This document shows positions 1 to 64,000 of a stretch of 64,000 nt of DNA, in pieces (the first letter of the stretch is position 1; each line of letters starts with the position of its first letter). A program made the position numbers and the translations under genes. The notes beneath the pieces were generated by a model. The model was given only the letters and a program-made list of their open reading frames with translations. It did not search any database and was not told the origin of the DNA. Location: positions 131,998,001 through 132,062,000 of the forward strand of contig OZ024744.1 in assembly GCA_964016885.1 (NCBI GenBank), in the 5' to 3' direction. The DNA comes from Eledone cirrhosa. Lineage: Eukaryota.

Positions 1-814
1 TTGGGGTTAAGTTAAGTTGGGGTTAAGTTAAGTTGAGGTTAAGTTAACTTGGGGTTAAGTTAAGTTGGGGTTAAGTTAAGTTGGGGTTGAGTTAAGTTGG
101 GGTTGAGTTAAGTTGGGGTTAAGTTAAGTTGGGGTTAAGTTAAGTTGGGGTTAAGTTAAGTTGGGGTTAATTTAAGTTCGGGTTAAGTTAAGTTCGGGGT
201 AAGCTAAGTTGGGGTTAAGTTAAATCGGGTCTAAGTTAAGTGGGAGGTTAAGTTAAGTTGGGGTTGAGTTAAGTTGTGGTTAAGTTAACTTGGGGTTAAG
301 TTAAGTTTGAGTTAAGTTGGGGTTAAGTTGGGGTTAAGTTAAGTTGGGGTTAAGTTACGTTGGGGTTAAGTTAAGTTGGGGTTAAGTTGAGGTTAAGTTA
401 AGTTGTGGTTAAGTTAAGTTGGGGCTAAGTTAAGTTGGGGCTAAGTTAAGTTGGGGTTAAGTTAAGTTGGGGTTAATTTAAGTTGGGGTTAGGTTAAGTT
501 GGGGATAATTTAAGTTGGGGATAAGTTAAGTTGGGGTTAAGTTAAGTTGGGTTTAAGTTAAGCTGGGGTTAAGTTAAGTTGGGGTTAAATTAAGTTGGGG
601 TTAAGTTAAGTTTGGGTTAGGTTAAGTTGGGGATAAGTTAAGTTGGGGATAAGTTAAGTTGGGGTTAAGTTAAGTTGGGTTTAAGTTAAGTTGGGGTTAA
701 GTTAAGTTGGGGTTAAGTTAAGTTGGGGTTAAGTTAAGTTGCGGTTAGTTAAGTTGAGTTTAAGTTAATTTAAGTTGGGGTTAAGTTAAGTTGGGGTTAG
801 GTTAAGTTGGGGTT

Positions 815-1046
815 AACACCAACTTAACTTAACCCCAACTTAACATAACCCCAACTTCACTCAACCCCAACTTAACTTAACCCCAACTTCACTCAACCCC
901 AACTTAACTCAACCCCAACTTAACTTAACCCCAACTTAACTTAACCCCAACTTAACTTAACCCTAACTTAACTTAACCCCGACTTAACGTAAGCCCGACT
1001 TAACTTAACCCCAACTTAACTTACCCCCAACTTAACTTAACCCCAA
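815..1046 (-). repeat. Inverted satellite block I1
   Basis: C-rich AACCCCAACTTAACTT units; left junction ggggttaacacc (1 mismatch to the palindrome), right junction ccccaa-agtcggag. Confidence 0.95.
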
Positions 1047-1859
1047 AGTCGGAGTTAAGTTGGGGTTAAGTTAAGTGGTGGTTATGTTAAGTTGGGGTTA
1101 AGTTAAGTTGGGGTTAAATTAAGTTGGGGTTAAGTTAAGTTGGGTGTAAGTTAAGTTGGGGTTGAGTGAAGTTGGGGTTCAGTTAAGTTGGGGTTAAGTA
1201 GAGTTGGGGTAAGTTAAGTTGGGGTTAAGTTAAGTTGGTGTTAAGTTGGGGTTAAGTTAAGTTGGGGTTAAGTTAAGTTGGGGTTGAGTGAAGTTGGGGT
1301 TAAGTTAAGTTGGGGTTAAATTAAGTTGGGGTTAACTTAAGTTGGGTTTAAGTTAAGTTGCGGTTAAGTTAAGTTGGGGTTAAGTTAAGTTGGGGTTAAG
1401 TTAAGTCGGGGTTAAGTGAAGTTGGGGTTGAGTTAAGTTGGGGTTATTTTAAGTTGAGGTTATGTTAAGTTGGGGTTAATTTAAGTTGGGGTTAAGTTAA
1501 GTTGGGGTTAATTTAAGTTGGGGTTAAGTTCAGTTGGGGTTAATTTAAGTTGGGGTTAAGTTAAGTTGGGTTTAAGTTAAGTTGGGGTTAAGTTAAGTTG
1601 GGGTTAAGTTAAGTTGAGTTTAAGTTAAGTTGGGGCTAAGTTAAGTTGGGTCTAATTTGAGTTGGGGTTAAGTTAAGTTGGGGTTAAGTTAAGTTGAGGT
1701 TAAATTAAGTTGGGGTTAATTAAGTTGGGGTTAAGTTAAGTTGGGGTTAAGTTAAGTTGAGGTTAAGTTAACTTGGGGTTAAGTTAAGTTGGGGTTAAGT
1801 TAAGTTGGGGTTGAGTTAAGTTGGGGTTAAGTTAAGTTGGGGTTAGTTTAAGTGGGGTT

Positions 1860-2059
1860 AACCCCAACTTAACTTAACCCCAACTTAACTTAACCCCAAC
1901 TTCACTCAACCCCAACTTAACTTAACCCCAACTTCACTCAACCCCAACTTAACTCAACCCCAACTTAACTTAACCCTAACTTAACTTAACCCCGACTTAA
2001 CTTAAGCCCGACTTAACTTAACCCCAACTTAACTTACCCCCAACTTAACTTAACCCCAA
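1860..2059 (-). repeat. Inverted satellite block I2
   Basis: ggggttaacccc left junction, ccccaa-agtcggag right junction. Confidence 0.95.
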
Positions 2060-8990: not shown

Positions 8991-11900
8991 AATCGGAGTT
9001 ACGTTAAGTTGGGGTTAAGTTAAGTTAGGCTTAACTTAAGTTGGGCTTAAGTTAAGTTGGGGGTAAGTTAAGTTGGGGGTAAGTTAAGTTGGGGTTAATT
9101 TAAGTTGGGGTTAAGTTAAGTGGTGGTTATGTTAAGTTGGGGTTAAGTTAAGTTGGGGTTAAATTAAGTTGGGGTTAAGTTAAGTTGGGTGTAAGTTAAG
9201 TTGGGGTTGAGTGAAGTTGGGGTTAAGTTAAGTTGGGGTTAAGTAGAGTTGGGGTTAAGTTAATTGGGGTTAAGTTGGTGTTAAGTTGGGGTTAAGTTAA
9301 GTTGGGGTTAAGTTGGGGTTAAGTTAAGTGGTGGTTATGTTAAGTTGGGGTTAACTTAAGTTGGGGTTAATTTAAATTGGGGTTAAGTTAACTTTGTGGT
9401 TAAGTTAAGTTGGGGTTAAGTTAAGTTGGGGTTAAGTTAAGTTGGGGTTGAGGGAAGTTGGGGTTAAGTTAAGTTGGGGTTAACTTAAGTTGGGTTTAAG
9501 TTAAGTTGCGGTTAAGTTAAGTTGGGGTTAAGTTAAGTTGGGGTTAAGTTAAGTCGGGGTTAAGTTAAGTTGGGGTTGAGTTAAGTTGGGGTTAATTTAA
9601 GTTGAGGTTATGTTAAGTTGGGGTTAATTTAAGTTGGGGTTAAGTTAAGTTGGGGTTAAGTTAAGTTGGGGTTAATTTAAGTTGGGGTTAAGTTCAGTTG
9701 GGGTTAATTTAAGTTGGGGTTAAGTTAAGTTGGGTTTAAGTTAAGTTGGGGTTAAATTAAGTTGGGGTTAAATTAAGTTGGGGTTAAGTTAAGTTGGGGT
9801 TAGGTTAAGTTGGGGATAAGTTAAGTTGGGGATAAGCTAAGTTGGGGTTAAGTTAAGTTGGGTTTAAGTTAAGTTGGGGTTAAGTTAAGTCGGGGTTATG
9901 TTAAGTCGGTGTTAAGTTAAGTTAGGGTTAAGTTAAGTTGGGGTTAAGTTAAGTTGGGGTTGAGTTAAGTTGGGGTTGAGTTAAATTGGGGTTGAGTTAA
10001 TTTGGGGTTAAGTTAAGTTGGGGTTAAGTTAAGTTGGGGTTGAGTTAAGTTGGGGCTACTTCAAGTTGGGGCTAAGTTAAGTTGGGGCTGAGTTAAGTTG
10101 GGTGTACGTTAAGTTGGGGTTAAGTTAAGTTGGGGTTAAGTAGAGTTGGGGTTAATTTAAGTTGGGGTTAAGTTAAGTTGGTGTTAAGTTGGGGTTAATT
10201 TAAGTGGTGGTTATGTTAAGTTCGGGTTAAGTTAAGTTGGGGTTAATTTAAATTGGGGTTAAGTTAACTTTGTGGTTAAGTTAAGTTGGAGTTAAGTTAA
10301 GTTGGAGTTAAGTTAAGTTGGGGTTGAGTGAAGTTGGGGTTAAGTTAAGTTGGGGTTAACTTAAGTTGGGTTTGAGTTAAGTTGGGGTTAAGTTAAGTTG
10401 GGGTTTAATTAAGTTGGGGTTGAGTTAAGTTGGGGTTGACTTAAGTTGGGCTTAAGTTAAGTTGGGGTTAAGTTAAGATGTGGTTAAGTTAAGTTGGGGT
10501 TAAGTTAAATTGGGGTTAAATTAAGTTGGGGTTAAGTTAAGTTGGGGGTAAGGTAGGTTGGTGGTAAGTTAAGTTGGGGGTAAGTTAAGATGGGGCTAAG
10601 TTAAGTTGGGGTTAAGTTAATTTGGGGTTAAGTTAAGTTAGGGTTAAGTTAAGTTGGGGTTGACTTATGTTGGGGTTAAGTTAAGTTGGGGTTATGTTAA
10701 GTTGGGTTTAAGTTAAGTTGGGGTTAAGTTAAGTTGGGGTTAAGTTAAGTTGCGGTTAAGTTAAGTTGGGGTTAAGTTAAGTTGGGGTTAAGTTAAGTTG
10801 GGGTTAAGTTAAGTTGGGGTTAAGTTAAGTTGGGGTTAATTTAAGTTGGGGTTAAATTAAGTTGGGGTTAATTTAAGTTGGGGGTTAAGATAAGTTGGGG
10901 TTAAGTTAAGTTGGGGTTAAATTAAGTTGGGGTTAAGTTAAGTTGGGGTTAATTTAAGTTGGGGTTAAGTTAAGTTGGGGTTGAGTTAAGTTGGGGGTAA
11001 GTTAAGTTGGGGGTAAGTTAAGTTGGGTGTAAGTTAAGATGGGGTTAAGTTAAGTTGGGGTTAAGTTATTTTGGGGTTAAGTTAAGTTGGGGGTAAGTTA
11101 AGTTGGTGATAAGTTAAGTTGGGGGTAAGTTAAGTTGGGGTTAAGTTAAGTTGGGTTAAGTTGGGGTTAAGTTAAGTTAGGGTTAAGTTAAGTTGGGGTT
11201 GAGTTAAGTTGGGGTTAAGTTAAGAGGTGGTTATGTTCAGTTGGGGTTAAGTTAAGTTGGGGTTAAGTTAAGTTGGGGTTAAGTTAAGTTGGGGTTAAGA
11301 TAAGTTGGGGTTAAGTTAAGTTGGGGTTGAGTTAAGTTGGGGTTGAGTTAATTTGGGGTTAAGTTAAGTTGGGGTTAACTTAATTTGGGTTTAATTTAAG
11401 TTGGGGTTAAGTTAAGTTGGGGTTAAATTAAGTTGGGATTAAGTTAAGTTGGGTGTACGTTAAGTTGGGGTTGACTGAAGTTGGGGTTAAGTTAAGTTGG
11501 GGTTAAGTAGAGTTGGGGTTAATTTAAGTTGGGGTTAAGTTAAGTTGGTGTTAAGTTGGGGTTAAGTTAAGTTGGGGTTAAGTTGGGGTTAAGTTAAGTG
11601 GTGGTTATGTTAAGTTGGGGTTAAGTTAAGTTGGGGTTAATTTAAATTGGGGTTAAGTTAACTTTGTGGTTAAGTTAAGTTGGAGTTAAGTTAAGTTGGG
11701 GTTAAGTTAAGTTGGGGTTGAGTGAAGTTGGGGTTAATTTAAGTTGGGGTTCAGTTAAGTTGGGGTTAAGTTAAGTTGGGGTTGAGTTAAGTTGGGGTTA
11801 ATTTAAGTTGAGGTTATTTTAAGTTGGGGTTAAGTTAAGTTGGGGTTAAGTTAAGTTGGGGTTAAGTTAAGTTGGGGTTAAGTTAAGTTGGGGTTAAGTT

Positions 11901-13898
11901 AAGTTGGGTTTAAGTTAAGTTGGGGTTAAATTAAGTTGGGGTTAAATTAAAGTGGGGTTAAGTTAAGTTGGGGGTAATTTAAGTTGGGGGTAAGTTAAGT
12001 TGGTGTTAAGTTAAGTTGGGGTTAAGTTAAGTTGGGGTTAAGTTAAGTTGGGTTTAAGTTAAGTTGGGACTAAGTTAAGTTAGGGCTAAGTTCAGTTGGG
12101 GTAAAGTTAAGTTGGGGCTAAGTTAAGTTGGGTATAAGATGAGTTGGGGTTAAGTTAAGTTGGGGTTAAGTTAAGTTGGGGTTAAATTAAGTTGGGGTTA
12201 ATTAAGTTGGGGTTAAGTTAAGTTGGGGTTAAGTTAAGTTGGGGTTAATTTAAGTTGGGGTTGTGTTAATTTGGGGTTAAGTTAAGTTGGGGTTATATTA
12301 AGTTGGGGTTAAGTTAAGTTGGGTTTAAGTTAAGTTGGGGTTAAGTTAAGTTGGGGTTAAGTTGAGTTAGGGTTAATTTAAGTTGGGGTTATGTTAAGTT
12401 GGGGTTAAGTTAAGTTGGGGTTAAGTAGAGTTGGGGTTAATTTAAGTTGGGGTTAAGTTAAGTTGGTGTTAAGTTGGGGTTAAGTTAAGTTGGGGTTAAG
12501 TTGGGGTTAAGTTGAGTGGTGGTTATGTTAAGTTGGGGTTAAGTTAAGTTGGGGTTAATTTAAATTGGGGTTAAGTTAACTTTGTGGTTAAGTTAAGTTG
12601 GAGTTAAGTTAAGTTGGGGTTAAGTTAAGTTGGGGTTGAGTGAAGTTGGGGTTAAGTTAAGTTGGGGTTAACTTAAGTTGGGGTTAAGTTAAGTTGGGGT
12701 TAAATTAAGTTGGGGTTAAATTAAGGTGGGGTTAAGTTAAGTTGGGGGTAAGTTAAGTTGGGGGCAAGTTAAGTTGGTGTTAAGTTAAGTTGGGGTTAAG
12801 TTAAGTTGGGGTTAAGTTAAGTTGGGTTTAAGTTAAGTTGGGACTAAGTTAAGTTAGGGCTAAGTTAAGTTGGGGTTAAGTTAAGTTGGGGCTAAGTTAA
12901 GTTGGGTCTAAGTTGAGTTGGGGTTAAGTTAAGTTGGGGTTAAGTTAAGTTGGGGTTAAATTAAGTTGGGGTTAATTAAGTTGGGGTTAAGTTAAGTTGG
13001 GGTTAAGTTAAGTTGGGGTTAATTTAAGTTGGGGGTAAGTTAAGTTGGTGGTAAGTTAAGTTGGGGTTAAGTTAAGTTGGGGTTAATTTAAATTGGGGTT
13101 AATTTAACTTTGTGGTTAAGTTAAGTTGGGGTTTATTTAAGTTGGGTTTAAGTTAAGTTGGGGTTGAGTTAAGTTGGGGTTGAGTGAAGTTGGGGTTAAG
13201 TTAAGTCGGGGTTAATTTAAGTTGGGGTTGAGTTAAGTCGGGGTTAATTTAAGTTGGGGCTAAGTTAATTTGTGGTTAAGTTAAGTTGGGGTTAAGTTAA
13301 GTTGGGGTTAAGTTAAGTTGGGGGTAAGTTAAGTTGGGGGCAAGTTAAGTTGGGGTTAAGTTAAGTTGCGGTTATTTTAAGTTGGGGTTAAGTTAAGTTG
13401 GGTTTAAGTTAAGTTGGGGTTCAGTTAAGTTGGGGTTTAGTTAAGTTGGGGTTAAGTTAAGTTGGGGTTGAGTTAAGTTGGGGTTTAATTAAGTTGGGGT
13501 TGAGTTAAGTTGGGGTTTAGTTAAGTGGGGGTTGAGTTAAGTTGGGGTTAAGCTAAGTTGGGGTTAAGTTAAATTGAGGTTAAGTTAACTTGGGTTTGAG
13601 TTAAGTTGGGGTTAAGTTAAGTTGGTGTTAAGTTCAGTTCAGGTTAAGTTAACTTGGGGTCAAGTTAAGTTGGGGTTGAGTTAAGTTGGGGTTGAGTTAA
13701 GTTGGGGTTAAGTTAAGTTGGGGTTAACTTAAGTTGGGGTTAAGTTAAGTTGGGGTTAATTTAAGTTGGGGTTCAGTTAAATTGAGGTTAAGATAACTTG
13801 GGTTTGCGTTAAGATGGGGTTAAGTTAGGTTTGTCGAAAACCTTATATAATCATTTTTATTTAGGTTCTTCGAAACACCTTATATAATCAATTTTTTT

Positions 13899-13916
13899 AG
13901 GTTTTTCGAAAAACCT
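13899..13916. other. Perfect 18-bp palindrome AGGTTTTTCGAAAAACCT (representative copy of the island subrepeat core)
   Basis: Sequence equals its reverse complement; degenerate copies recur throughout every island. Confidence 0.95.
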
Positions 13917-14542
13917 TATATAATCAATTTTTTAATACTTTTAGAAATATTTATATCTGATTTCAAATATTGATTTTATTAGGTTTTTGGAATAATCAAT
14001 TTTTTTTACGTTTTTCGAAAAATGTTATATAATCAATTTTTTTTAGGTTTTTCGAATCAATTCAATTTTTATAATCAAATATTTTTAGGTTTTTAGAAAA
14101 ACCTTATATAATCAAATTTTTTTAGGTTTTTCGAAAAACCTTATATAATTAATTTTTTTATACTTTTAGAAATATTTATATCTGATTTCAAATATTGGAT
14201 TTTTTAGGTTTTTCGATAATCAATTTTTTTTAGATTTTTCGAAAAATCTTATATAATCAATTTTTTTACGTTTTTAGAAAGACCTTATATAATCAATTTT
14301 TTTATACTTTTAGAAATATTTATATCTGATTTCAAATATTGATTTTTTTTTTAGGTTTTTCGAAATACCTTATATAATCAATTTTTTTTAGGTTTTTCAA
14401 ATTACTTTATATAATCAATTTTTTTTATCTGATTTCAAATATTGATTTTTTTAGCTTTTTCGACAAAATCTTATATAATCAATTTTTTTTAGGTTTTTCG
14501 AAAAAGAATGAATTTGAGTTCATAGTCGAAATATATACTTCT

Positions 14543-14599
14543 GCATTAATCTTTTTACGTTTTTTTGATTTTTTTTAAAAAAACGTAAAAAATTAATGC
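14543..14599. other. Potential stem-loop, ~23-bp stem with one bulged C and ~10-nt loop (representative; present in every 573-bp module)
   Basis: gcattaatctttttacgttttttt pairs with aaaaaaacgtaaaaaattaatgc. Confidence 0.85.
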
Positions 14600-14654
14600 T
14601 TTTACAAATCTTTACAAATCTTTCTAGTTTCAAATTTTGCAGATTAAATTTTTC

Positions 14655-14814
14655 TCGAAAAACCTAAAAAATCAGTTGTCGAAATCAGAAGTTAATATTT
14701 CGAAAAACGCAATTTGAAAAACTCATATTAATTTTTTTTCGAAAACATTATATAATCAATTTTTTAGAAATATTTATATCTGATTTCAAATATTGATTTT
14801 TTTAGGTTTTTCGA
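14655..14814. repeat. Diverged ~47-bp inverted repeat pair inside the island module
   Basis: tcgaaaaacctaaaaaatcagttgtcgaaatcagaagttaatatttc (14655-14701) is a diverged reverse complement of gaaatatttatatctgatttcaaatattgatttttttaggtttttcga (14767-14814). Confidence 0.8.
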
Positions 14815-16022
14815 AAACCCTATATAATCAATTTTTTTGTACTTTTAGAAATATCTATATCTGATTTCATGTATTGATTTTTTTATATTTTTCGAAAAAG
14901 CTTAGATAATCAATTTTTTTAGGTCTTTCGAAAACATTATATAATCAATTTTTTTTTAGGTTTTTCGAAAAAACCTTATATAATCAATTTTTTTTAGGTT
15001 TTTCAAATATTGATTTTTTTAGCTTTTTCGACAAAATCTTATATAATCAATTTTTTTTAGGTTTTTCGAAAAAGAATGAATTTGAGTTCATAGTCGAAAT
15101 ATATACTTCTGCATTAATCTTTTTACGTTTTTTTGATTTTTTTTAAAAAAACGTAAAAAATTAATGCTTTTACAAATCTTTTGAAATATTTACTTTCTAG
15201 TTTCAAATTTTGCAGAATAAATTTTTCTCGAAAAACCTAAAAAATCAGTTGTCGAAATCAGAAGTTAATATTTCGTAAAACGCAATTTGAAAAACTCATA
15301 TTAATTTTTTTTCGAAAACTTATTATATAATCAATTTTTTTATACTTTTAGAAATATTTATATCTGATTTCAAATATTGATTTTTTTTAGGTTTTTCGAA
15401 AACCCTATATAATCAATTTTTTTTAGGTTTTTCAAAAAAGTTACGTTGGGGTTAAGTTAAGTTGGGGTTAAGTTGAGGTTAAGTTAAGTTGTGGTTAAGT
15501 TAAGTTGGGGCTAAGTTAAGTTGGGGCTAAGTTAAGTTGGGGTTAAGTTAAGTTGGGGTTAATTTAAGTTGGGGTTAGGTTAAGTTGGGGATAAGTTAAG
15601 TTGGGGATAAGTTAAGTTGGGGTTAAGTTAAGTTGGGTTTAAGTTAAGTTGGGGTTAAGTTAAGTTGGGGTTAAGTTAAGTTGGGGTTAAGTTAAGTTGC
15701 GGTTAGTTAAGTTGAGTTTAAGTTAAGTTGGGGTTAATTTAAGTTGGGGTTAAGTTAAGTTGGGGTTCAGTTAAGTTGGGGTTAAGTCAAGTTGGGGTTA
15801 AGTTAAGTTGGGGTTAAGTTAAGTTGGGGTTAGGTTAAGTTGGGGATAATTTAAGTTGGGGATAAGCTAAGTTGGGGTTAAGTTAAGTTGGGTTTAAGTT
15901 AAGTTGGGGTTAAGTTAAGTTGGGGTTAAATTAAGTTGGGGTTAAGTTAAGCTGGGGTTAAATTAAGTTGGGGTTATGTTAAGTTGGGGTTAAGTTAAGT
16001 TGGGGTTAGTTTAAGTGGGGTT

Positions 16023-16367
16023 AACCCCAACTTAACTTAACCCCAACTTAACTTAACCCCAACTTCACTCAACCCCAACTTAAATTAACCCCAACTTCAC
16101 TCAACCCCAACTTAACTCAACCCCAACTTAAATTAACCCCAACTTAACTTAACCCTGACTTAACTTAACCCCGACTTAACTTAACCCCGACTTAACTTAA
16201 CCCCAACTTAACTTAAACCCCAACTTAACTTAACCCCAACTTAACTTAACCCCAACTTGACTTAACCCCAACTTAACTCACACCCAACTTAACTTACCCC
16301 CAACTTAACTTAACCACAACTTGACGTAAACCCAACTTAACTTAACCCCAACTTAACTTAACCCCAA
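16023..16367 (-). repeat. Inverted satellite block I7
   Basis: Same stereotyped junctions; I4-type variants. Confidence 0.95.
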
Positions 16368-19048
16368 AGTCGGAGTTCAGTTAAGTTGGGGTTCAGTTAA
16401 GTTAGGCTTAACTTAAGTTGGGGTTAAGTTAAGTTGGGGGTAAGTTAAGTTGGGGGTAAGTTAAGTTGGGGTTAAGTTAAGTTGGGGTTAAGTTGGGGTT
16501 AAGTTAAGTTAGGGTTAAGTTAAGTTGGGGTTGAGTTAAGTTGGGGTTAAGTTAAGTGGTGGTTATGTTAAGTTGGGGTTAAGTTAAGTTGGGGTTAAAT
16601 TAAGTGGGGTTAACTTAAGTTGGGTGTAAGTTAAGTTGGGGTTGAGTGAAGTTGGGGTTAAGTTAAGTTGGGGTTAAGTTAAGTTAGGGTTAATTTAAGT
16701 TGGGGTTATGTTAAGTTGGGGTTAAGTTAAGTTGGGGGTAAGTTAAGTTGGGGGTAAGTTAAGTTGGGGTTAAGTTAAGTTGGGGTTAAGTTGGGGTTAA
16801 GTTAAGTTAGGGTTAAGTTAAGTTGGGGTTGAGTTAAGTTGGGGTTAAGTTAAGTGGTGGTTATGTTAAGTTGGGGTTAAGTTAAGTTGGGGTTAAATTA
16901 AGTGGGGTTAACTTAAGTTGGGTGTAAGTTAAGTTGGGGTTGAGTGAAGTTGGGGTTAATTTAAGTTGGGGTTCAGTTAAGTTGGGGTTAAGTTAAGTTG
17001 GGGTTGAGTTAAGTTGGGGTTAATTTAAGTTGAGGTTATTTTAAGTTGGGGTTAAGTTAAGTTGGGGTTAAGTTAAGTTGGGGTTAAGTTAAGTTGGGGT
17101 TAAGTTAAGTTGGGGTTAAGTTAAGTTGGGTTTAAGTTAAGTTGGGGTTAAATTAAGTTGGGGTTAAATTAAAGTGGGGTTAAGTTAAGTTGGGGGTAAT
17201 TTAAGTTGGGGGTAAGTTAAGTTGGTGTTAAGTTAAGTTGGGGTTAAGTTAAGTTGGGGTTAAGTTAAGTTGGGTTTAAGTTAAGTTGGGACTAAGTTAA
17301 GTTAGGGCTAAGTTCAGTTGGGGTAAAGTTAAGTTGGGGCTAAGTTAAGTTGGGTATAAGTTGAGTTGGGGTTAAGTTAAGTTGGGGTTAAGTTAAGTTG
17401 GGGTTAAATTAAGTTGGGGTTAATTAAGTTGGGGTTAAGTTAAGTTGGGGTTAAGTTAAGTTGGGGTTAATTTAAGTTGGGGTTGTGTTAATTTGGGGTT
17501 AAGTTAAGTTGGGGTTATATTAAGTTGGGGTTAAGTTAAGTTGGGTTTAAGTTAAGTTGGGGTTAAGTTAAGTTGGGGTTAAGTTGAGTTAGGGTTAATT
17601 TAAGTAGGGGTTATGTTAAGTTGGGGTTAAGTTAAGTTGGGGTTAAGTAGAGTTGGGGTTAATTTAAGTTGGGGTTAAGTTAAGTTGGTGTTAAGTTGGG
17701 GTTAAGTTAAGTTGGGGTTAAGTTGGGGTTAAGTTGAGTGGTGGTTATGTTAAGTTGGGGTTAAGTTAAGTTGGGGTTAATTTAAATTGGGGTTAAGTTA
17801 ACTTTGTGGTTAAGTTAAGTTGGAGTTAAGTTAAGTTGGGGTTAAGTTAAGTTGGGGTTGAGTGAAGTTGGGGTTAAGTTAAGTTGGGGTTAACTTAAGT
17901 TGGGGTTAAGTTAAGTTGGGGTTAAATTAAGTTGGGGTTAAATTAAGGTGGGGTTAAGTTAAGTTGGGGGTAAGTTAAGTTGGGGGCAAGTTAAGTTGGT
18001 GTTAAGTTAAGTTGGGGTTAAGTTAAGTTGGGGTTAAGTTAAGTTGGGTTTAAGTTAAGTTGGGACTAAGTTAAGTTAGCGCTAAGTTAAGTTGGGGTTA
18101 AGTTAAGTTGGGGCTAAGTTAAGTTGGGTCTAAGTTGAGTTGGGGTTAAGTTAAGTTGGGGTTAAGTTAAGTTGGGGTTAAATTAAGTTGGGGTTAATTA
18201 AGTTGGGGTTAAGTTAAGTTGGGGTTAAGTTAAGTTGGGGTTAATTTAAGTTGGGGGTAAGTTAAGTTGGTGGTAAGTTAAGTTGGGGTTAAGTTAAGTT
18301 GGGGTTAATTTAAATTGGGGTTAATTTAACTTTGTGGTTAAGTTAAGTTGGGGTTTATTTAAGTTGGGTTTAAGTTAAGTTGGGGTTGAGTTAAGTTGGG
18401 GTTGAGTGAAGTTGGGGTTAAGTTAAGTCGGGGTTAATTTAAGTTGGGGTTGAGTTAAGTCGGGGTTAATTTAAGTTGGGGCTAAGTTAATTTGTGGTTA
18501 AGTTAAGTTGGGGTTAAGTTAAGTTGGGGTTAAGTTAAGTTGGGGGTAAGTTAAGTTGGGGGCAAGTTAAGTTGGGGTTAAGTTAAGTTGCGGTTAATTT
18601 AAGTTGGGGTTAAGTTAAGTTGGGTTTAAGTTAAGTTGGGGTTCAGTTAAGTTGGGGTTTAGTTAAGTTGGGGTTAAGTTAAGTTGGGGTTGAGTTAAGT
18701 TGGGGTTTAATTAAGTTGGGGTTGAGTTAAGTTGGGGTTTAGTTAAGTGGGGGTTGAGTTAAGTTGGGGTTAAGCTAAGTTGGGGTTAAGTTAAATTGAG
18801 GTTAAGTTAACTTGGGTTTGAGTTAAGTTGGGGTTAAGTTAAGTTGGTGTTAAGTTCAGTTCAGGTTAAGTTAACTTGGGGTCAAGTTAAGTTGGGGTTG
18901 AGTTAAGTTGGGGTTGAGTTAAGTTGGGGTTAAGTTAAGTTGGGGTTAACTTAAGTTGGGGTTAAGTTAAGTTGGGGTTAATTTAAGTTGGGGTTCAGTT
19001 AAATTGAGGTTAAGATAACTTGGGTTTGCGTTAAGATGGGGTTAAGTT

Positions 19049-21244: not shown

Positions 21245-21589
21245 AACCCCAACTTAACTTAACCCCAACTTAACTTAACCCCAACTTCACTCAACCCCAA
21301 CTTAAATTAACCCCAACTTCACTCAACCCCAACTTAACTCAACCCCAACTTAAATTAACCCCAACTTAACTTAACCCTGACTTAACTTAACCCCGACTTA
21401 ACTTAACCCCGACTTAACTTAACCCCAACTTAACTTAAACCCCAACTTAACTTAACCCCAACTTAACTTAACCCCAACTTGACTTAACCCCAACTTAACT
21501 CACACCCAACTTAACTTACCCCCAACTTAACTTAACCACAACTTGACGTAAACCCAACTTAACTTAACCCCAACTTAACTTAACCCCAA
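21245..21589 (-). repeat. Inverted satellite block I8
   Basis: Copy of I7, offset 5222 bp. Confidence 0.95.
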
Positions 21590-45443: not shown

Positions 45444-45936
45444 GTTACGTTGGGGTTAAGTTAAGTTGGGGTTAAGTTGAGGTTAAGTTAAGTTGTGGTT
45501 AAGTTAAGTTCGGGCTAAGTTAAGTTGGGGCTAAGTTAAGTTGGGGTTAAGTTAAGTTGGGGTTAATTTAAGTTGGGGTTAGGTTAAGTTGGGGATAAGC
45601 TAAGTTGGGGATAAGTTAAGTTGGGGTTAAGTTAAGTTGGGTTTAAGTTAAGCTGGGGTTAAGTTAAGTTGGGGTTAAATTAAGTTGGGGTTAAGTTAAG
45701 TTTGGGTTAGGTTAAGTTGGGGATAAGTTAAGTTGGGGATAAGTTAAGTTGGGGTTAAGTTAAGTTGGGTTTAAGTTAAGTTGGGGTTAAGTTAAGTTGG
45801 GGTTAAGTTAAGTTGGGGTTAAGTTAAGTTGCGGTTAGTTAAGTTGAGTTTAAGTTAAGTTGGGGTTAATTTAAGTTGGGGTTCAGTTAAATTGAGGTTA
45901 AGATAACTTGGGTTTGCGTTAAGATGGGGTTAAGTT

Positions 45937-54652: not shown

Positions 54653-56655
54653 GTTACGTTGGGGTTAAGTTAAGTTGGGGTTAAGTTGAGGTTAAGTTAA
54701 GTTGTGGTTAAGTTAAGTTGGGGCTAAGTTAAGTTGGGGCTAAGTTAAGTTGGGGTTAAGTTAAGTTGGGGTTAATTTAAGTTGGGGTTAGGTTAAGTTG
54801 GGGATAAGCTAAGTTGGGGATAAGTTAAGTTGGGGTTAAGTTAAGTTGGGTTTAAGTTAAGCTGGGGTTAAGTTAAGTTGGGGTTAAATTAAGTTGGGGT
54901 TAAGTTAAGTTTGGGTTAGGTTAAGTTGGGGATAAGTTAAGTTGGGGATAAGTTAAGTTGGGGTTAAGTTAAGTTGGGTTTAAGTTAAGTTGGGGTTAAG
55001 TTAAGTTGGGGTTAAGTTAAGTTGGGGTTAAGTTAAGTTGCGGTTAAGTTAAGTTGGGGTTATATTAAGTTGGGGTTAAGTTAAGTTGGGTTTAAGTTAA
55101 GTTGTGGTTAAGTTAAGTTGGGGTTAAGTTAAGTTAGGGTTAATTTAAGTTGGGGTTATGTTAAGTTGGGGTTAAGTTAAGTTGGGGTTAAGTAGAGTTG
55201 GGGTTAATTTAAGTTGGGGTTAAGTTAAGTTGGTGTTAAGTTGGGGTTAAGTTAAGTTGGGGTTAAGTTGGGGTTAAGTTGAGTGGTGGTTATGTTAAGT
55301 TGGGGTTAAGTTAAGTTGGGGTTAATTTAAATTGGGGTTAAGTTAACTTTGTGGTTAAGTTAAGTTGGAGTTAAGTTAAGTTGGGGTTAAGTTAAGTTGG
55401 GGTTGAGTGAAGTTGGGGTTAAGTTAAGTTGGGGTTAACTTAAGTTGGGGTTAAGTTAAGTTGGGGTTAAATTAAGTTGGGTTAAATTAAGGTGGGGTTA
55501 AGTTAAGTTGGGGGTAAGTTAAGTTGGGGGCAAGTTAAGTTGGTGTTAAGTTAAGTTGGGGTTAAGTTAAGTTGGGGTTAAGTTAAGTTGGGTTTAAGTT
55601 AAGTTGGGACTAAGTTAAGTTAGGGCTAAGTTAAGTTGGGGTTAAGTTAAGTTGGGGCTAAGTTAAGTTGGGTCTAAGTTGAGTTGGGGTTAAGTTAAGT
55701 TGGGGTTAAGTTAAGTTGGGGTTAAATTAAGTTGGGGTTAATTAAGTTGGGGTTAAGTTAAGTTGGGGTTAAGTTAAGTTGGGGTTAATTTAAGTTGGGG
55801 TTGTGTTAAGTTGGGGTTAAGTTAAGTTGGGGATAAGTTAAGTTGGGGTTAAGTTAAGTTGGGGGTAAGTTAAGTTGGTGGTAAGTTAAGTTGGGGTTAA
55901 GTTAAGTTGGGGTTAATTTAAATTGGGTTAATTTAACTTTGTGGTTAAGTTAAGTTGGGGTTTATTTAAGTTGGGTTTAAGTTAAGTTGGGGTTGAGTTA
56001 AGTTGGGGTTGAGTGAAGTTGGGGTTAAGTTAAGTCGGGGTTAATTTAAGTTGGGGTTGAGTTAAGTCGGGGTTAATTTAAGTTGGGGCTAAGTTAATTT
56101 GTGGTTAAGTTAAGTTGGGGTTAAGTTAAGTTGGGGTTAAGTTAAGTTGGGGGTAAGTTAAGTTGGGGGCAAGTTAAGTTGGGGTTAAGTTAAGTTGCGG
56201 TTAAGTTAAGTTGGGGTTAAGTTAAGTTGGGTTTAAGTTAAGTTGGGGTTCAGTTAAGTTGGGGTTAAGTTAAGTTGGGGTTAAGTTAAGTTGGGGTTGA
56301 GTTAAGTTGGGGTTTAATTAAGTTGGGGTTGAGTTAAGTTGGGGTTGAGTTAAGTGGGGGTTGAGTTAAGTTGGGGTTAAGCTAAGTTGGGGTTAAGTTA
56401 AATTGAGGTTAAGTTAACTTGGGTTTGATTTAAGTTGGGGTTAAGTTAAGTTGGTGTTAAGTTCAGTTCAGGTTAAGTTAACTTGGGGTTAAGTTAAGTT
56501 GGGGTTGAGTTAAGTTGGCGTTGAGTTAAGTTGGGGTTAAGTTAAGTTGGGGTTAACTTAAGTTGGGGTTAAGTTAAGTTGGGGTTAATTTAAGTTGGGG
56601 TTCAGTTAAATTGAGGTTAAGATAACTTGGGTTTGCGTTAAGATGGGGTTAAGTT

Positions 56656-58272
56656 AGGTTTTTCGAAAACCTTATATAATCATTTTTATTTAGGTTCTTC
56701 GAAACACCTTATATAATCAATTTTTTTAGGTTTTTCGAAAAACCTTATATAATCAATTTTTTAATACTTTTAGAAATATTTATATCTGATTTCAAATATT
56801 GATTTTATTAGGTTTTTGGAATAATCAATTTTTTTTACGTTTTTCGAAAAATGTTATATAATCAATTTTTTTTAGGTTTTTCGAATCAATTCAATTTTTA
56901 TAATCAAATATTTTTAGGTTTTTAGAAAAACCTTATATAATCAAATTTTTTTAGGTTTTTCGAAAAACCTTATATAATTAATTTTTTTATACTTTTAGAA
57001 ATATTTATATCTGATTTCAAATATTGGATTTTTTAGGTTTTTCGATAATCAATTTTTTTTAGATTTTTCGAAAAATCTTATATAATCAATTTTTTTACGT
57101 TTTTAGAAAGACCTTATATAATCAATTTTTTTATACTTTTAGAAATATTTATATCTGATTTCAAATATTGATTTTTTTTTTAGGTTTTTCGAAATACCTT
57201 ATATAATCAATTTTTTTTAGGTTTTTCAAATTACTTTATATAATCAATTTTTTTTATCTGATTTCAAATATTGATTTTTTTAGCTTTTTCGACAAAATCT
57301 TATATAATCAATTTTTTTTAGGTTTTTCGAAAAAGAATGAATTTGAGTTCATAGTCGAAATATATACTTCTGCATTAATCTTTTTACGTTTTTTTGATTT
57401 TTTTTAAAAAAACGTAAAAAATTAATGCTTTTACAAATCTTTTGAAATATTTACTTTCTAGTTTCAAATTTTGCAGATTAAATTTTTCTCGAAAAACCTA
57501 AAAAATCAGTTGTCGAAATCAGAAGTTAATATTTCGAAAAACGCAATTTGAAAAACTCATATTAATTTTTTTTCGAAAACATTATATAATCAATTTTTTA
57601 GAAATATTTATATCTGATTTCAAATATTGATTTTTTTAGGTTTTTCGAAAACCCTATATAATCATTTTTTTTGTACTTTTAGAAATATCTATATCTGATT
57701 TCATGTATTGATTTTTTTATATTTTTCGAAAAAGCTTAGATAATCAATTTTTTTAGGTCTTTCGAAAACATTATATAATCAATTTTTTTTTAGGTTTTTC
57801 GAAAAAACCTTATATAATCAATTTTTTTTAGGTTTTTCAAATATTGATTTTTTTAGCTTTTTCGACAAAATCTTATATAATCAATTTTTTTTAGGTTTTT
57901 CGAAAAAGAATGAATTTGAGTTCATAGTCGAAATATATACTTCTGCATTAATCTTTTTACGTTTTTTTGATTTTTTTTAAAAAAACGTAAACAATTAATG
58001 CTTTTACAAATCTTTTGAAATATTTACTTTCTAGTTTCAAATTTTGCAGATTAAATTTTTCTCGAAAAACCTAAAAAATCAGTTGTCGAAATCAGAAGTT
58101 AATATTTCGTAAAACGCAATTTGAAAAACTCATATTAATTTTTTTTCGAAAACTTATTATATAATCAATTTTTTTATACTTTTAGAAATATTTATATCTG
58201 ATTTCAAATATTGATTTTTTTAGGTTTTTCGAAAACCCTATATAATCAATTTTTTTTAGGTTTTTCAAAAAA
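56656..58272 (+). repeat. AT-rich island A9
   Basis: Same boundaries, two module copies. Confidence 0.95.
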
Positions 58273-58765
58273 GTTACGTTGGGGTTAAGTTAAGTTGGGG
58301 TTAAGTTGAGGTTAAGTTAAGTTGTGGTTAAGTTAAGTTGGGGCTAAGTTAAGTTGGGGCTAAGTTAAGTTGGGGTTAAGTTAAGTTGGGGTTAATTTAA
58401 GTTGGGGTTAGGTTAAGTTGGGGATAAGCTAAGTTGGGGATAAGTTAAGTTGGGGTTAAGTTAAGTTGGGTTTAAGTTAAGCTGGGGTTAAGTTAAGTTG
58501 GGGTTAAATTAAGTTGGGGTTAAGTTAAGTTTGGGTTAGGTTAAGTTGGGGATAAGTTAAGTTGGGGATAAGTTAAGTTGGGGTTAAGTTAAGTTGGGTT
58601 TAAGTTAAGTTGGGGTTAAGTTAAGTTGGGGTTAAGTTAAGTTGGGGTTAAGTTAAGTTGCGGTTAGTTAAGTTGAGTTTAAGTTAAGTTGGGGTTAATT
58701 TAAGTTGGGGTTCAGTTAAATTGAGGTTAAGATAACTTGGGTTTGCGTTAAGATGGGGTTAAGTT

Positions 58766-60382
58766 AGGTTTGTCGAAAACCTTATATAATCATTTTTATT
58801 TAGGTTCTTCGAAACACCTTATATAATCAATTTTTTTAGGTTTTTCGAAAAACCTTATATAATCAATTTTTTAATACTTTTAGAAATATTTATATCTGAT
58901 TTCAAATATTGATTTTATTAGGTTTTTGGAATAATCAATTTTTTTTACGTTTTTCGAAAAATGTTATATAATCAATTTTTTTTAGGTTTTTCGAATCAAT
59001 TCAATTTTTATAATCAAATATTTTTAGGTTTTTAGAAAAACCTTATATAATCAAATTTTTTTAGGTTTTTCGAAAAACCTTATATAATTAATTTTTTTAT
59101 ACTTTTAGAAATATTTATATCTGATTTCAAATATTGGATTTTTTAGGTTTTTCGATAATCAATTTTTTTTAGATTTTTCGAAAAATCTTATATAATCAAT
59201 TTTTTTACGTTTTTAGAAAGACCTTATATAATCAATTTTTTTATACTTTTAGAAATATTTATATCTGATTTCAAATATTGATTTTTTTTTTAGGTTTTTC
59301 GAAATACCTTATATAATCAATTTTTTTTAGGTTTTTCAAATTACTTTATATAATCAATTTTTTTTATCTGATTTCAAATATTGATTTTTTTAGCTTTTTC
59401 GACAAAATCTTATATAATCAATTTTTTTTAGGTTTTTCGAAAAAGAATGAATTTGAGTTCATAGTCGAAATATATACTTCTGCATTAATCTTTTTACGTT
59501 TTTTTGATTTTTTTTAAAAAAACCTAAAAAATTAATGCTTTTACAAATCTTTTGAAATATTTACTTTCTAGTTTCAAATTTTGCAGATTAAATTTTTCTC
59601 GAAAAACCTAAAAAATCAGTTGTCGAAATCAGAAGTTAATATTTCGAAAAACGCAATTTGAAAAACTCATATTAATTTTTTTTCGAAAACATTATATAAT
59701 CAATTTTTTAGAAATATTTATATCTGATTTCAAATATTGATTTTTTTAGGTTTTTCGAAAACCCTATATAATCAATTTTTTTGTACTTTTAGAAATATCT
59801 ATATCTGATTTCATGTATTGATTTTTTTATATTTTTCGAAAAAGCTTAGATAATCAATTTTTTTAGGTCTTTCGAAAACATTATATAATCAATTTTTTTT
59901 TAGGTTTTTCGAAAAAACCTTATATAATCAATTTTTTTTAGGTTTTTCAAATATTGATTTTTTTAGCTTTTTCGACAAAATCTTATATAATCAATTTTTT
60001 TTAGGTTTTTCGAAAAAGAATGAATTTGAGTTCATAGTCGAAATATATACTTCTGCATTAATCTTTTTACGTTTTTTTGATTTTTTTTAAAAAAACGTAA
60101 ACAATTAATGCTTTTACAAATCTTTTGAAATATTTACTTTCTAGTTTCAAATTTTGCAGATTAAATTTTTCTCGAAAAACCTAAAAAATCAGTTGTCGAA
60201 ATCAGAAGTTAATATTTCGTAAAACGCAATTTGAAAAACTCATATTAATTTTTTTTCGAAAACTTATTATATAATCAATTTTTTTATACTTTTAGAAATA
60301 TTTATATCTGATTTCAAATATTGATTTTTTTAGGTTTTTCGAAAACCCTATATAATCAATTTTTTTTAGGTTTTTCAAAAAA
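58766..60382 (+). repeat. AT-rich island A10
   Basis: Copy of A9, offset 2110 bp. Confidence 0.95.
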
Positions 60383-61093
60383 GTTACGTTGGGGTTAAGT
60401 TAAGTTGGGGTTAAGTTGAGGTTAAGTTAAGTTGTGGTTAAGTTAAGTTGGGGCTAAGTTAAGTTGGGGCTAAGTTAAGTTGGGGTTAAGTTAAGTTGGG
60501 GTTAATTTAAGTTGGGGTTAGGTTAAGTTGGGGATAAGCTAAGTTGGGGATAAGTTAAGTTGGGGTTAAGTTAAGTTGGGTTTAAGTTAAGCTGGGGTTA
60601 AGTTAAGTTGGGGTTAAATTAAGTTGGGGTTAAGTTAAGTTTGGGTTAGGTTAAGTTGGGGATAAGTTAAGTTGGGGATAAGTTAAGTTGGGGTTAAGTT
60701 AAGTTGGGTTTAAGTTAAGTTGGGGTTAAGTTAAGTTGGGGTTAAGTTAAGTTGGGGTTAAGTTAAGTTGCGGTTAGTTAAGTTGAGTTTAAGTTAAGTT
60801 GGGGTTAATTTAAGTTGGGGTTAAGTTAAGTTGGGGTTCAGTTAAGTTGGGGTTAAGTCAAGTTGGGGTTAAGTTAAGTTGGGGTTAAGTTAAGTTGGGG
60901 TTAGGTTAAGTTGGGGATAATTTAAGTTGGGGATAAGCTAAGTTGGGGTTAAGTTAAGTTGGGTTTAAGTTAAGTTGGGGTTAAGTTAAGTTGGGGTTAA
61001 ATTAAGTTGGGGTTAAGTTAAGCTGGGGTTAAATTAAGTTGGGGTTATGTTAAGTTGGGGTTAAGTTAAGTTGGGGTTAGTTTAAGTGGGGTT

Positions 61094-61615
61094 AACCCCA
61101 ACTTAACTTAACCCCAACTTAACTTAACCCCAACTTCACTCAACCCCAACTTAAATTAACCCCAACTTCACTCAACCCCAACTTAACTCAACCCCAACTT
61201 AAATTAACCCCAACTTAACTTAACCCTGACTTAACTTAACCCCGACTTAACTTAACCCCGACTTAACTTAACCCCAACTTAACTTAAACCCCAACTTAAC
61301 TTAACCCCAACTTAACTTAACCCCAACTTAACTCACACCCAACTTAACTTACCCCCAACTTAACTTAACCCCAACTTCACTCAACCCCAACTTAACTTAA
61401 CCCCAACTTCACTCAACCCCAACTTAACTCAACCCCAACTTAACTTAACCCCAACTTAACTTAACCCCGACTTAAACTTAACCCCGACTTAACTTAACCC
61501 CAACTTAACTTAACCCCAACTTAACTTAACCCCAACTTAACTTAATCCCAACTTGACTTAACCCCAACTTAACTCACACCCAACTTAACTTACCCCCAAC
61601 TTAACTTAACCCCAA
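61094..61615 (-). repeat. Inverted satellite block I13 (longest; chimeric)
   Basis: First part carries I4/I7-type variants, second part I5-type variants. Confidence 0.93.
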
Positions 61616-62735
61616 AGTCGGAGTTAAGTTAAGTTGGGGTTAAGTTAAGTTAGGCTTAACTTAAGTTGGGGTTAAGTTAAGTTGGGGGTAAGTTAAGTTG
61701 GGGGTAAGTTAAGTTGGGGTTAAGTTAAGTTGGGGTTAAGATAAGTGGTGGTTATGTTAAGTTGAGGTTAAGTTAAGTTAGGGTTAAATTAAGTTGGGGT
61801 TAAGTTAAGTTGGGTGTAAGTTAAGTTGGGGTTGAGTGAAGTTGGGGTTAAGTTAAGTTGGGGTTAAGTAGAATTGGGGTTAAGTTAAGTTGGGGTTAAG
61901 TTAAGTTGGTGTTAAGTTGGGGTTAAGTTAAGTTGGGGTTAAGTTGGGGTTAAGTTAAGTGGTGGTTATGTTAAGTTGGGGTTAACTTAAGTTGGGGTTA
62001 ATTTAAATTGGGGTTAAGTTAACTTTGTGGTTAAGTTAAGTTGGGGTTAAGTTAAGTTGGGGTTAAATTAAGTTGGGGTTGAGTGAAGTTGGGGTTAAGT
62101 TAAGTTGGGGTTAAGTTAAGTTGGGGTTAACTTAAGTTGGGTTTAAGTTAAGTTGCGGTTAAGTTAATTTGGGGTTAAGTTAAGTTGGGGTTAAGTTAAG
62201 TCGGGGTTAATTTAAGTTGGGGTTGAGTTAAGTTGGGGTTAATTTAAGTTGAGGTTATGTTAAGTTGGGGTTAATTTAAGTTGGGGTTAAGTTAAGTTGG
62301 GGTTAAGTTAAGTTGGGGTTAATTTAAGTTGGGATTAAGTTCAGTTGGGGTTAAATTAAGTTGGGGTTAAGTTAAGCTGGGGTTAAATTAAGTTGGGGTT
62401 AAGTTAAGTTGGGGTTAATTTAAGTTGGGGTTAAGTTAAGTTAGGGTTAATTTAAGTTGGGGTTATGTTAAGTTGGGGTTAAGTTAAGTTGGGGTTAAGT
62501 CGAGTTGGGGTTAAGTTAAGTTGGGGTTAGTTAAGTTGAGTTTAAGTCAAGTTGGGGTTAATTTAAGTTGGGGTTAAGTTAAGTTGGGGTTCAGTTAAGT
62601 TGGGGTTAAGTTAAGTTGGGGTTGAGTTAAGTTGTGGTTAAGTTAAGGTGGGGTTAGGTTAAGTTGGGGTTAAGTTAAGCTGGGGTTAAATTAAGTTGGG
62701 GTTAAGTTAAGTTGGGGTTAGGTTAAGTTGGGGTT

Positions 62736-63000
62736 AACCCCAACTTAACTTAACCCCAACTTCACTCAACCCCAACTTAACTTAACCCCAACTTCACTCA
62801 ACCCCAACTTAACTCAACCCCAACTTAACTTAACCCCAACTTAAATTAACCCCGACTTAAACTTAACCCCGACTTAACTTAACCCCAACTTAACTTAACC
62901 CCAACTTAACTTAACCCCAACTTAACTTAATCCCAACTTGACTTAACCCCAACTTAACTCACACCCAACTTAACTTACCCCCAACTTAACTTAACCCCAA
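62736..63000 (-). repeat. Inverted satellite block I14
   Basis: ggggttaacccc left junction, agtcggag right junction; I5-type. Confidence 0.95.
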
Positions 63001-64000
63001 AGTCGGAGTTAAGTTAAGTTGGGGTTAAGTTAAGTTAGGCTTAACTTAAGTTGGGGTTAAGTTAAGTTGGGGGTAAGTTAAGTTGGGGGTAAGTTAAGTT
63101 GGGGTTAAGTTAAGTTGGGGTTAAGATAAGTGGTGGTTATGTTAAGTTGAGGTTAAGTTAAGTTAGGGTTAAATTAAGTTGGGGTTAAGTTAAGTTGGGT
63201 GTAAGTTAAGTTGGGGTTGAGTGAAGTTGGGGTTAAGTTAAGTTGGGGTTAAGTAGAGTTGGGGTTAAGTTAAGTTGGGGTTAAGTTAAGTTGGTGTTAA
63301 GTTGGGGTTAAGTTAAGTTGGGGTTAAGTTGGGGTTAAGTTAAGTGGTGGTTATGTTAAGTTGGGGTTAACTTAAGTTGGGGTTAATTTAAGTTGGGGTT
63401 GAGTGAAGTTGGGGTTAAGTTAAGTTGGGGTTAAGTTAAGTTGGGGTTAACTTAAGTTGGGTTTAAGTTAAGTTGCGGTTAAGTTAATTTGGGGTTAAGT
63501 TAAGTTGGGGTTAAGTTAAGTCGGGGTTAATTTAAGTTGGGGTTGAGTTAAGTTGGGGTTAATTTAAGTTGAGGTTATGTTAAGTTGGGGTTAATTTAAG
63601 TTGGGGTTAAGTTAAGTTGGGGTTAAGTTAAGTTGGGGTTAATTTAAGTTGGGATTAAGTTCAGTTGGGGTTAAATTAAGTTGGGGTTAAGTTAAGCTGG
63701 GGTTAAATTAAGTTGGGGTTAAGTTAAGTTGGGGTTAAGTTAAGTTGGGGTTAAGTTAAGTTAGGGTTAATTTAAGTTGGGGTTATGTTAAGTTGGGGTT
63801 AAGTTAAGTTGGGGTTAAGTCGAGTTGGGGTTAAGTTAAGTTAGGGTTAGTTAAGTTGAGTTTAAGTTAAGTTGGGGTTAATTTAAGTTGGGGTTAAGTT
63901 AAGTTGGGGTTCAGTTAAGTTGGGGTTAAGTTAAGTTGGGGTTAAGTTAAGTTGGTTTAAGTTAAGTTGGGGTTAGGTTAAGTTGGGGATAAGTTAAGTT

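What the first reader, a model, noticed from the sequence alone, without database searches (positions are those of the whole stretch)
1..64000. Telomere-like 16-mer array that is amplified by recombination: candidate telomerase-independent chromosome-end (or centromeric) system
Seen: the monomer TTGGGG-TTAAG-TTAAG is strongly strand-asymmetric (6 G, 0 C), yet strings of mutated monomers, inversions and AT islands are copied faithfully in kb-scale blocks. Established: TTGGGG is the Tetrahymena telomere repeat, TTAGG is the common arthropod repeat, and telomerase re-synthesises its template consensus so it cannot propagate long strings of variants. The 11-bp variant TTAAGTTGGGG is also one base from the TTAGGTTGGGG motif that I recall from bumblebee telomeres. 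Inference: a telomere-derived or telomere-substituting repeat maintained by unequal exchange, break-induced replication or rolling-circle copying, with the G-strand running 5'->3' towards higher coordinates as expected if a chromosome end lies to the right. I do not recognise this monomer as a named satellite.
Basis: partly seen in the sequence, partly recalled or inferred. Interest (0 to 1): 0.75.

Follow-up and report, generated by a model that had tools for sequence, protein, structure and literature searches.

The report
Giant internal octopus satellite, not telomere
The window is part of an 8.4-million-base block of a 16-letter repeat that stops more than a million bases short of the assembled chromosome end, in what is likely an octopus whose chromosome tips carry ordinary TTAGGG, so it is not a new telomere system but satellite DNA that likely arose from a telomere-variant repeat, likely grows by local duplication and possibly lies at a centromere.

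Summary
In detail: a 16-bp monomer (TTGGGG-TTAAG-TTAAG), 14 small inversions and 10 AT islands, copied in near-exact blocks of 1-9 kb. The array spans C28:126.97-135.35 Mb and ends 1.15 Mb before the contig end, behind other satellites and LINEs. Ten of 46 chromosome ends examined carry outward-facing TTAGGG; none carries the 16-mer. Other arrays are internal, on C2, C3 and C18 only. The host is likely an octopod. All inversions descend from one fold-back at the array edge. A centromere role is open (about 0.3): 4 of 27 chromosomes, no CENP-A data. The scan reported this same array before from other windows. The monomer was not found in print. A new member of a known kind.

The parts
1..64000 (+). 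Section of the 8.38-Mb 16-bp satellite array (G000:C28:126,967,458-135,348,073); monomer TTGGGGTTAAGTTAAG, about 6% divergence from consensus among in-register monomers
818..1049 (-). Inverted 16-mer segment, first of 14 (also 1857-2063, 3585-3819, 4751-5056, 5710-6060, 8727-8996, 16020-16373, 21242-21595, 26416-26766, 27608-27907, 30672-30973, 32885-33154, 61091-61618, 62736-63003); spacer-free fold-back junction GGGGTTAACCCC on the left, shared CCCCAAAGTCGGAGTT-type junction on the right; descends from the array's edge segment
13838..15435 (+). AT-rich island (about 20% GC) of a second, ~36-38-bp satellite with 81/144/225/369-bp higher periods, first of 10 (also 19060-20657, 24282-25879, 35611-37786, 38295-39895, 43265-45439, 45948-47447, 52678-54648, 56667-58268, 58777-60378); same family forms pure blocks at C28:132.31-132.41 and 132.49-132.52 Mb
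14490..14760 (.). Non-periodic, inverted-repeat-rich core of the island; its pieces also occur as a dispersed repeat with many different flanks (likely MITE-like)
11703..26211 (+). 5,222-bp higher-order unit (16-mer + island + inversion), about 2.8 tandem near-identical copies
36117..47086 (+). Duplicated two-island block at offset 7,653 (3,317 bp with 3 breaks)
56569..60822 (+). 2,110-bp unit (island + 508-bp 16-mer), 2 tandem copies

Best explanation
This is an internal, multi-megabase satellite array with no role as the chromosome end, which likely descends from a telomere-variant repeat and likely expands by local head-to-tail duplication of kb-sized blocks, forming heterochromatin in a region that may flank the centromere of a chromosome with a very short arm. 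Shown: position, edges, ordinary telomeres elsewhere, block duplication, single origin of the inversions and island junctions. Inferred history: TTGGGG runs that accumulate at inner telomere borders gave a hexamer-periodic 32-mer; a shortened 16-mer arose in register at its edge; a fold-back template switch at the monomer's own TTAA centre turned the growing array round; one junction pair with an AT-rich satellite was captured; unequal exchange or break-induced replication then copied these scars passively.
For: Array edges at C28:126,967,458 and 135,348,073 of 136,499,333. Distal 1.15 Mb: 0 of 20 new 10-kb samples hold the 16-mer; they hold other tandem repeats and RT/endonuclease ORFs. TTAGGG at 10 of 46 ends, 16-mer at 0 of 46. 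Other arrays internal: C2 209.2-209.8 of 416 Mb, C3 184.77-185.37 of 379 Mb, C18 4.79-4.80 and <9.9-10.53 of 44 Mb. Local growth: 84-95% of 60-mers from three samples within 0.14 Mb are in the window, 3-15% from other 16-mer samples of the array; units vary in size and reach at most about 2.8 tandem copies, unlike a rolling-circle product. Inverted segments share 4-6 of 8 variant monomers with the edge segment, against at most 3 in 4,000 random 300-bp controls (controls overlap, and the 14 segments are one event). 32-mer: 763 copies, 73% matches, lag-6 autocorrelation 0.60, joined in the same orientation to the edge 16-mer. TTGGGG runs at 5 of 5 inner telomere borders captured.
Against: The assembled right end of C28 lacks TTAGGG, so the true distance to the tip is unknown, though at least 1.15 Mb as assembled; the distal region was sampled (about 23%), not read whole, so a scaffold gap there is not excluded. 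36 of 46 ends lack any telomere repeat (incomplete assembly) and 8 right ends were not read. The TTAAG/TCTAAG blocks resemble TTAGGG only weakly, so the descent from telomeric DNA rests on TTGGGG, hexamer periodicity and one adjacency; convergence of low-complexity sequence is possible. The mid-chromosome positions on C2 and C3 and the size of the C28 array fit a functional centromere equally well. No chromatin data.
Confidence: 0.62

Rival explanations
1. The array (16-mer, or the AT-rich blocks inside it at 132.3-132.5 Mb) is the functional centromere of C28, and perhaps of C3, C2 and C18: a chromosome-restricted centromeric satellite of telomeric descent; the window would be the transition layer beside the core.
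For: 8.4 Mb, no unrelated insertion in 19 of 19 interior 10-kb samples; single region per chromosome, at 49-50% of the two giant chromosomes and near the end of C28; heterogeneous higher-order repeats and two intermixed families, as described for candidate satellite centromeres (10.64898/2026.09.17.752431, section 6 read); an older, more diverged layer at the edge; octopods have localized centromeres by karyotype (PMC5646656, passages).
Against: Seen on only 4 of 27 chromosome-scale contigs; divergence is flat along the array (4.6-6.4%), with no more homogeneous centre; a separate 196/227-bp satellite forms a 98-99% homogeneous array at C2:245 Mb, 35 Mb from the 16-mer, and an array at C4:212 Mb, a more usual centromere candidate; 16 bp is far below the 100-200 bp mode. 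My one test of the AT family's spread was too sparse (5 hits, all C2).
Confidence: 0.3
2. The 16-mer is a telomere substitute maintained by recombination at a chromosome end.
For: G-rich strand asymmetry; G-strand runs towards the nearer end over most of C28's array; C28's assembled ends show no TTAGGG; TERT was not detected by one Pfam search (uninformative by the tool's own control).
Against: 0 of 46 ends carry it, 10 carry pure TTAGGG; continuous, gap-free passage from array into 32-mer and then LINE-bearing DNA; all other arrays internal; TTAGGG is the reported cephalopod motif (PMC13218726, passage).
Confidence: 0.02
3. The faithful kb-scale copies or the size of the array are largely assembly artefacts (repeated use of the same reads, haplotype pieces placed in tandem).
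For: 200-N scaffold gaps bound the two small minus-strand blocks (C28:124.69 Mb, C18:4.79 Mb); those blocks mirror parts of the main array and could be misplaced haplotype pieces; no long reads were examined.
Against: Copies differ by 0-7 breaks with graded divergence and nested unit sizes; sequence changes progressively along 8 Mb; no N in the window or in any of the array samples; about half of the sampled words are in three runs of the organism (these may be the source sample, so not independent).
Confidence: 0.06

Closest known systems
Tribolium madens TmSat1/TmSat2 (PMC13081366; abstract and passages read)
   Same: [quoted passage not shown]
   Different: There both satellites come from one ~110-bp element, lie on all chromosomes and form dyads of tens of kb; here two unrelated families (16 bp G-rich, ~37 bp AT-rich), inversions of 0.2-0.5 kb from one event, 4 of 27 chromosomes
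Satellite-type candidate centromeres with heterogeneous higher-order repeats, ditypic/polytypic genomes (10.64898/2026.09.17.752431; abstract, section 6 and passages read; supplements closed)
   Same: Long arrays, non-regimented HORs, intermixed families, chromosome-specific variants
   Different: Monomer far shorter than the 100-200 bp mode; not shared by most chromosomes; no central homogeneity seen. The main text has no 'octopus', 'cephalopod' or 'mollus'; its supplementary table could not be seen
Interstitial telomeric repeats amplified at centromeres, e.g. Solanum (via review PMC5615363, passages)
   Same: Telomere-like sequence amplified internally as satellite; the C3 tract of degenerate TTAGGG (about 220 kb, 81% matches) next to the 16-mer is a direct example
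   Different: The 16-mer holds no TTAGGG tandem; its link to telomeric DNA is inferred through TTGGGG and a 32-mer intermediate
Bombus telomere TTAGGTTGGGG (PMC9841428, passages)
   Same: One base from the 11-bp variant of this array
   Different: Telomerase-made and terminal in an insect; here 0 exact copies in the window, a minor deletion variant of an internal array in a mollusc: coincidence

Membership tests
Telomere (telomerase-made or telomerase-independent) | Occupies chromosome termini | tested here: not met
   0 of 46 ends examined; array ends 1.15 Mb from the C28 end
Telomere (telomerase-made or telomerase-independent) | G-strand points outward wherever it occurs | tested here: not met
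   minus-strand blocks inside the array, inward-facing edge layer, opposite to the adjoining TTAGGG tract on C3
Telomerase-independent telomere | Canonical telomerase repeat absent from ends | tested here: not met
   TTAGGG arrays at 10 of 46 ends, four of them over 13 kb and 98-100% perfect
Telomerase-independent telomere | TERT lost | tested here: inconclusive
   PF12009 search found nothing, but exon-wise search with no positive control
Telomere (any) | BAL31 sensitivity, terminal FISH, C-circles | not testable with these tools
   bench tests
Satellite DNA with higher-order repeats | Long tandem array with multi-monomer blocks duplicated at high identity | tested here: met
Satellite DNA with higher-order repeats | Local homogenisation: neighbours more alike than distant copies | tested here: met
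   60-mer sharing 0.84-0.95 within 0.14 Mb, 0.03-0.15 for other 16-mer samples
Centromeric satellite | One array on most or all chromosomes | tested here: not met
   hits on C2, C3, C18, C28 only among C1-C28 in four variant-pattern lists; small or diverged arrays and unplaced contigs could be missed
Centromeric satellite | Homogeneous core with diverged flanks | tested here: inconclusive
   older 32-mer at the distal edge but flat 4.6-6.4% divergence inside
Centromeric satellite | CENP-A occupancy, primary constriction | not testable with these tools
   no chromatin or cytological data
Heterochromatic interstitial telomeric sequence | Built of the organism's own telomere repeat | tested here: not met
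   0 TTAGGGTTAGGG in the window; only the variant TTGGGG is shared
rDNA-associated (NOR) satellite | Lies beside rRNA gene arrays | tested here: inconclusive
   none of 29 listed 5.8S matches is at a 16-mer locus, but only 40 candidates were scored; one degenerate 28S fragment at C28:124.876 Mb

The most novel reading that the evidence does not exclude
This is the centromere of an octopod chromosome, built from a 16-bp satellite whose stepwise descent from telomeric DNA is still readable (TTAGGG, then TTGGGG border variant, then 32-mer, then 16-mer), and the arrays at the midpoints of two giant chromosomes mark fusion sites turned into centromeres: a first sequence handle on cephalopod centromeres and a preserved telomere-to-centromere transition.
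Probability: 0.12. Interest if true: 0.7.

Novelty: new member of a known kind. Interest (0 to 1): 0.25.

Why it matters
As a satellite it is one more lineage-specific family. It matters modestly because I found no description of cephalopod centromere DNA and octopod karyotypes were reshaped by fusions (PMC12682272, passages): a mapped array with FISH-ready monomers, sitting mid-way on two giant chromosomes and once beside a 220-kb internal telomeric tract, makes the centromere and fusion-scar questions directly testable.

Tried and rejected
TERT search by PF12009: no match, uninformative. rDNA association: not supported by the 5.8S listing. Rfam: no family in the window. Canonical four-tract G-quadruplex motif with loops of 1-7 bases: 0 on the G-strand; 374 only if loops up to 12 are allowed; not pursued. 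Sequencing runs: no RNA holder listed. Organism B holds the island core (28 of 28 bins, 11 of 14 contigs at 95% or more) and organism C only diverged pieces; whether either holds the 16-mer was not tested. Monomer in print: 0 papers for four phases of the 16-mer; 9 unrelated papers for the 11-mer, listing only; most subscription papers and bioRxiv supplements are not covered. Rolling-circle amplification considered and judged unlikely from the low tandem copy number of each unit. Bumblebee resemblance rejected.
Full report
Observation. The window is a tandem array of TTGGGGTTAAGTTAAG (period 16). It splits into 42,251 bases of forward 16-mer, 14 inverted segments (4,328 bases) and 10 AT-rich islands (17,421 bases). 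Near-exact duplicates of 1 kb or more cover 68% of it; a 5,222-bp unit occurs about 2.8 times in tandem (11,703-26,211); the longest exact repeat is 4,230 bp against 110-131 bp in five simulated arrays with independent mutation. The 11-bp unit is a minor variant (67 of about 2,350 spacings) and the bumblebee motif itself is absent (the motif is real and telomerase-made in Bombus, PMC9841428, passages).

Place in the genome. The window is G000:C28:131,998,001-132,062,000; C28 is 136,499,333 bases. The genome has 27 chromosome-scale contigs. The array starts at 126,967,458, in DNA with C2H2 zinc-finger and LINE remnants, and ends at 135,348,073: 8.38 Mb. Of 19 interior 10-kb samples, 17 are 16-mer throughout, one has AT islands and one is pure AT satellite; none has an N. 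The right edge was read continuously from 135.203 to 135.400 Mb with no gap. Distal to it lie 1.15 Mb of other tandem repeats (30-135 bp units and multiples) and RT/endonuclease ORFs, with no 16-mer in 20 of 20 samples. The assembled end itself has no TTAGGG, so the tip is missing from the assembly.

Real telomeres. I read 46 of 54 chromosome ends (3-5 kb each; right ends of C19-C26 not read). Ten carry TTAGGG in the outward orientation, none carries the 16-mer. Four of the tracts exceed 13 kb and are 98-100% perfect, whereas perfect monomers cover 33% of the window's forward 16-mer. Purity of this kind fits telomerase synthesis (established knowledge); TERT itself was not found by one uninformative search. 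TTAGGG is also the reported cephalopod motif (PMC13218726, passage citing Adachi 2014).

Host. A nuclear haemocyanin unit scores best against 1js8_A (855 bits; next single units 738 and 734). That 1JS8 is octopus and 4YD9/6R83 squid haemocyanin is recalled. The 16-kb mitochondrial contig has the order cox3-nad2-cox1-cox2-atp6 (assignment by reading the translations). The host is likely an octopod; I did not establish the species.

Other arrays. Three perfect copies match 29,441 times and first appear on C2. Four variant patterns whose lists run through C1-C27 show 12, 3, 34 and 18 hits there, all on C2, C3 or C18; unplaced contigs were cut off in three of the four lists, and small or diverged arrays could be missed. 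C2:209.2-209.8 Mb (50% of its length) is a ~520-bp composite of a variant 16-mer with a 270-bp piece of a GC-richer satellite, preceded by an AT satellite related to the window's islands. C3:184.77-185.37 Mb (49%) directly follows about 220 kb of degenerate (CCCTAA)n, tail to tail, so not a head-to-head telomere fusion signature. C18 has a 12-kb gap-bounded block at 4.79 Mb whose flank is 97% identical to the left flank of the C28 array, and an array from below 9.9 to 10.53 Mb; the small block may be a segmental duplicate or a misplaced haplotype piece.

How it grew. All 14 inversions share one right junction and a spacer-free GGGGTTAACCCC-type left junction at the monomer's TTAA centre (13 of 14 listed); all islands share the right junction and 8 of 10 the exact left one. 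So each is one event, copied. The inverted segments share 4-6 of 8 variant monomers with the ~280-bp inverted segment at the array's distal edge, against at most 3 in 4,000 random controls. That edge segment runs in register into a 23.6-kb, 763-copy, 73%-matching 32-mer, TTGGGG-TTGGGG-TTTAAG-TCTAAG-TCTAAG-GC on its G-strand, and the same edge is mirrored at C28:124.56-124.60 Mb. Runs of TTGGGG occur at the inner border of all five telomeres whose border I captured. Inference: telomere-variant hexamers gave the 32-mer, the 16-mer is a shortened derivative, and a fold-back turned the expanding array. The TCTAAG/TTAAG blocks match TTAGGG poorly, so this step is plausible, not shown. Sharing of 60-mers with the window is 0.84-0.95 within 0.14 Mb and 0.03-0.15 for other 16-mer samples of the array; with variable unit sizes and fewer than three tandem copies each, this fits unequal exchange or break-induced replication better than rolling circles (inference). 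The window lies at the left margin of a 0.75-Mb zone where 16-mer alternates with AT satellite, including pure blocks at 132.31-132.41 and 132.49-132.52 Mb; one more island was seen at 129.1 Mb.

Centromere? For: size, one region per chromosome, mid positions on C2 and C3, a satellite-filled short distal arm on C28, two intermixed families with heterogeneous HORs (compare 10.64898/2026.09.17.752431, section 6). Against: 4 of 27 chromosomes, flat divergence along the array, and a 196/227-bp family with a 98-99% homogeneous array at C2:245 Mb and an array at C4:212 Mb. Without CENP-A data I put it at about 0.3.

Comparison and novelty. It works like the Tribolium madens major/minor satellite mosaics with conserved inversion and transition sites (PMC13081366) and like internally amplified telomere-like repeats (PMC5615363). 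It fails membership as a telomere and as a pan-chromosomal centromeric satellite. The monomer was not found in the library. Earlier notes of this scan describe the same array from other windows and reach the same verdict; they are not independent support, and my reading was recorded before seeing them. Verdict: real, undescribed satellite of a known kind; interest 0.25.

Noticed in passing
G000:C3:184.55-184.77 Mb (L183, L184, L077, L078, L185): About 220 kb of degenerate interstitial (CCCTAA)n (81% matches) at the midpoint of a giant chromosome, with inserted pieces of the GC-rich satellite, abutting the 16-mer array; candidate fusion scar
   Followed up: partly
G000:C2:245.03 Mb (L091), C4:212.22 Mb (L170), C18:6.7-6.85 Mb (L089), C28:124.7-126.0 Mb (L090), C1185, C1456: GC-richer 196/227-bp satellite family; 98-99% homogeneous on C2, 1,780-bp higher-order unit on C18/C28; a more typical centromere candidate than the 16-mer
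   Followed up: partly
G000:C28:124.3-124.69 Mb versus 135.3-135.6 Mb: Mirror arrangement (41-mer, 32-mer, 16-mer) on both sides of an 11-Mb region; the small block ends in a 200-N gap and shares 51% of its 60-mers with the window
   Followed up: partly
G000:C18:4.79-6.85 Mb versus C28:126.97-124.7 Mb: Inverted ~2-Mb correspondence (same 16-mer/zinc-finger junction, 97% identical flank, same 1,780-bp repeat): segmental duplication or misplaced haplotype
   Followed up: partly
window:14490-14760: Inverted-repeat-rich core of the AT island; 82-84% of matching reads from two other individuals run on into unlike sequence, so its pieces are also a dispersed repeat, possibly the MITE-like source of the AT satellite
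   Followed up: partly
L178, L179, L175, L180, L045/L172 (C5R, C6R, C9L, C14R, C19L): TTGGGG variant runs (up to 46 copies) at the inner border of every telomere read through
   Followed up: partly
L090:1-669 and 1078-1122 (C28:124.876 Mb): Degenerate 28S rRNA fragment and a histone 3' stem-loop beside a short 16-mer patch within the GC-satellite region
   Followed up: no
G000:C1:173.7-173.9 Mb, C26:21.9-22.0 Mb, C27:0.06 Mb: Several multi-unit haemocyanin gene copies (three on C1, an inverted pair on C26)
   Followed up: no
window inversion junction (e.g. 1041) and L168:1-40: The AAGTCGGAG in the inversion's right junction also occurs in a 32-mer variant; 9 bases, may be chance
   Followed up: no
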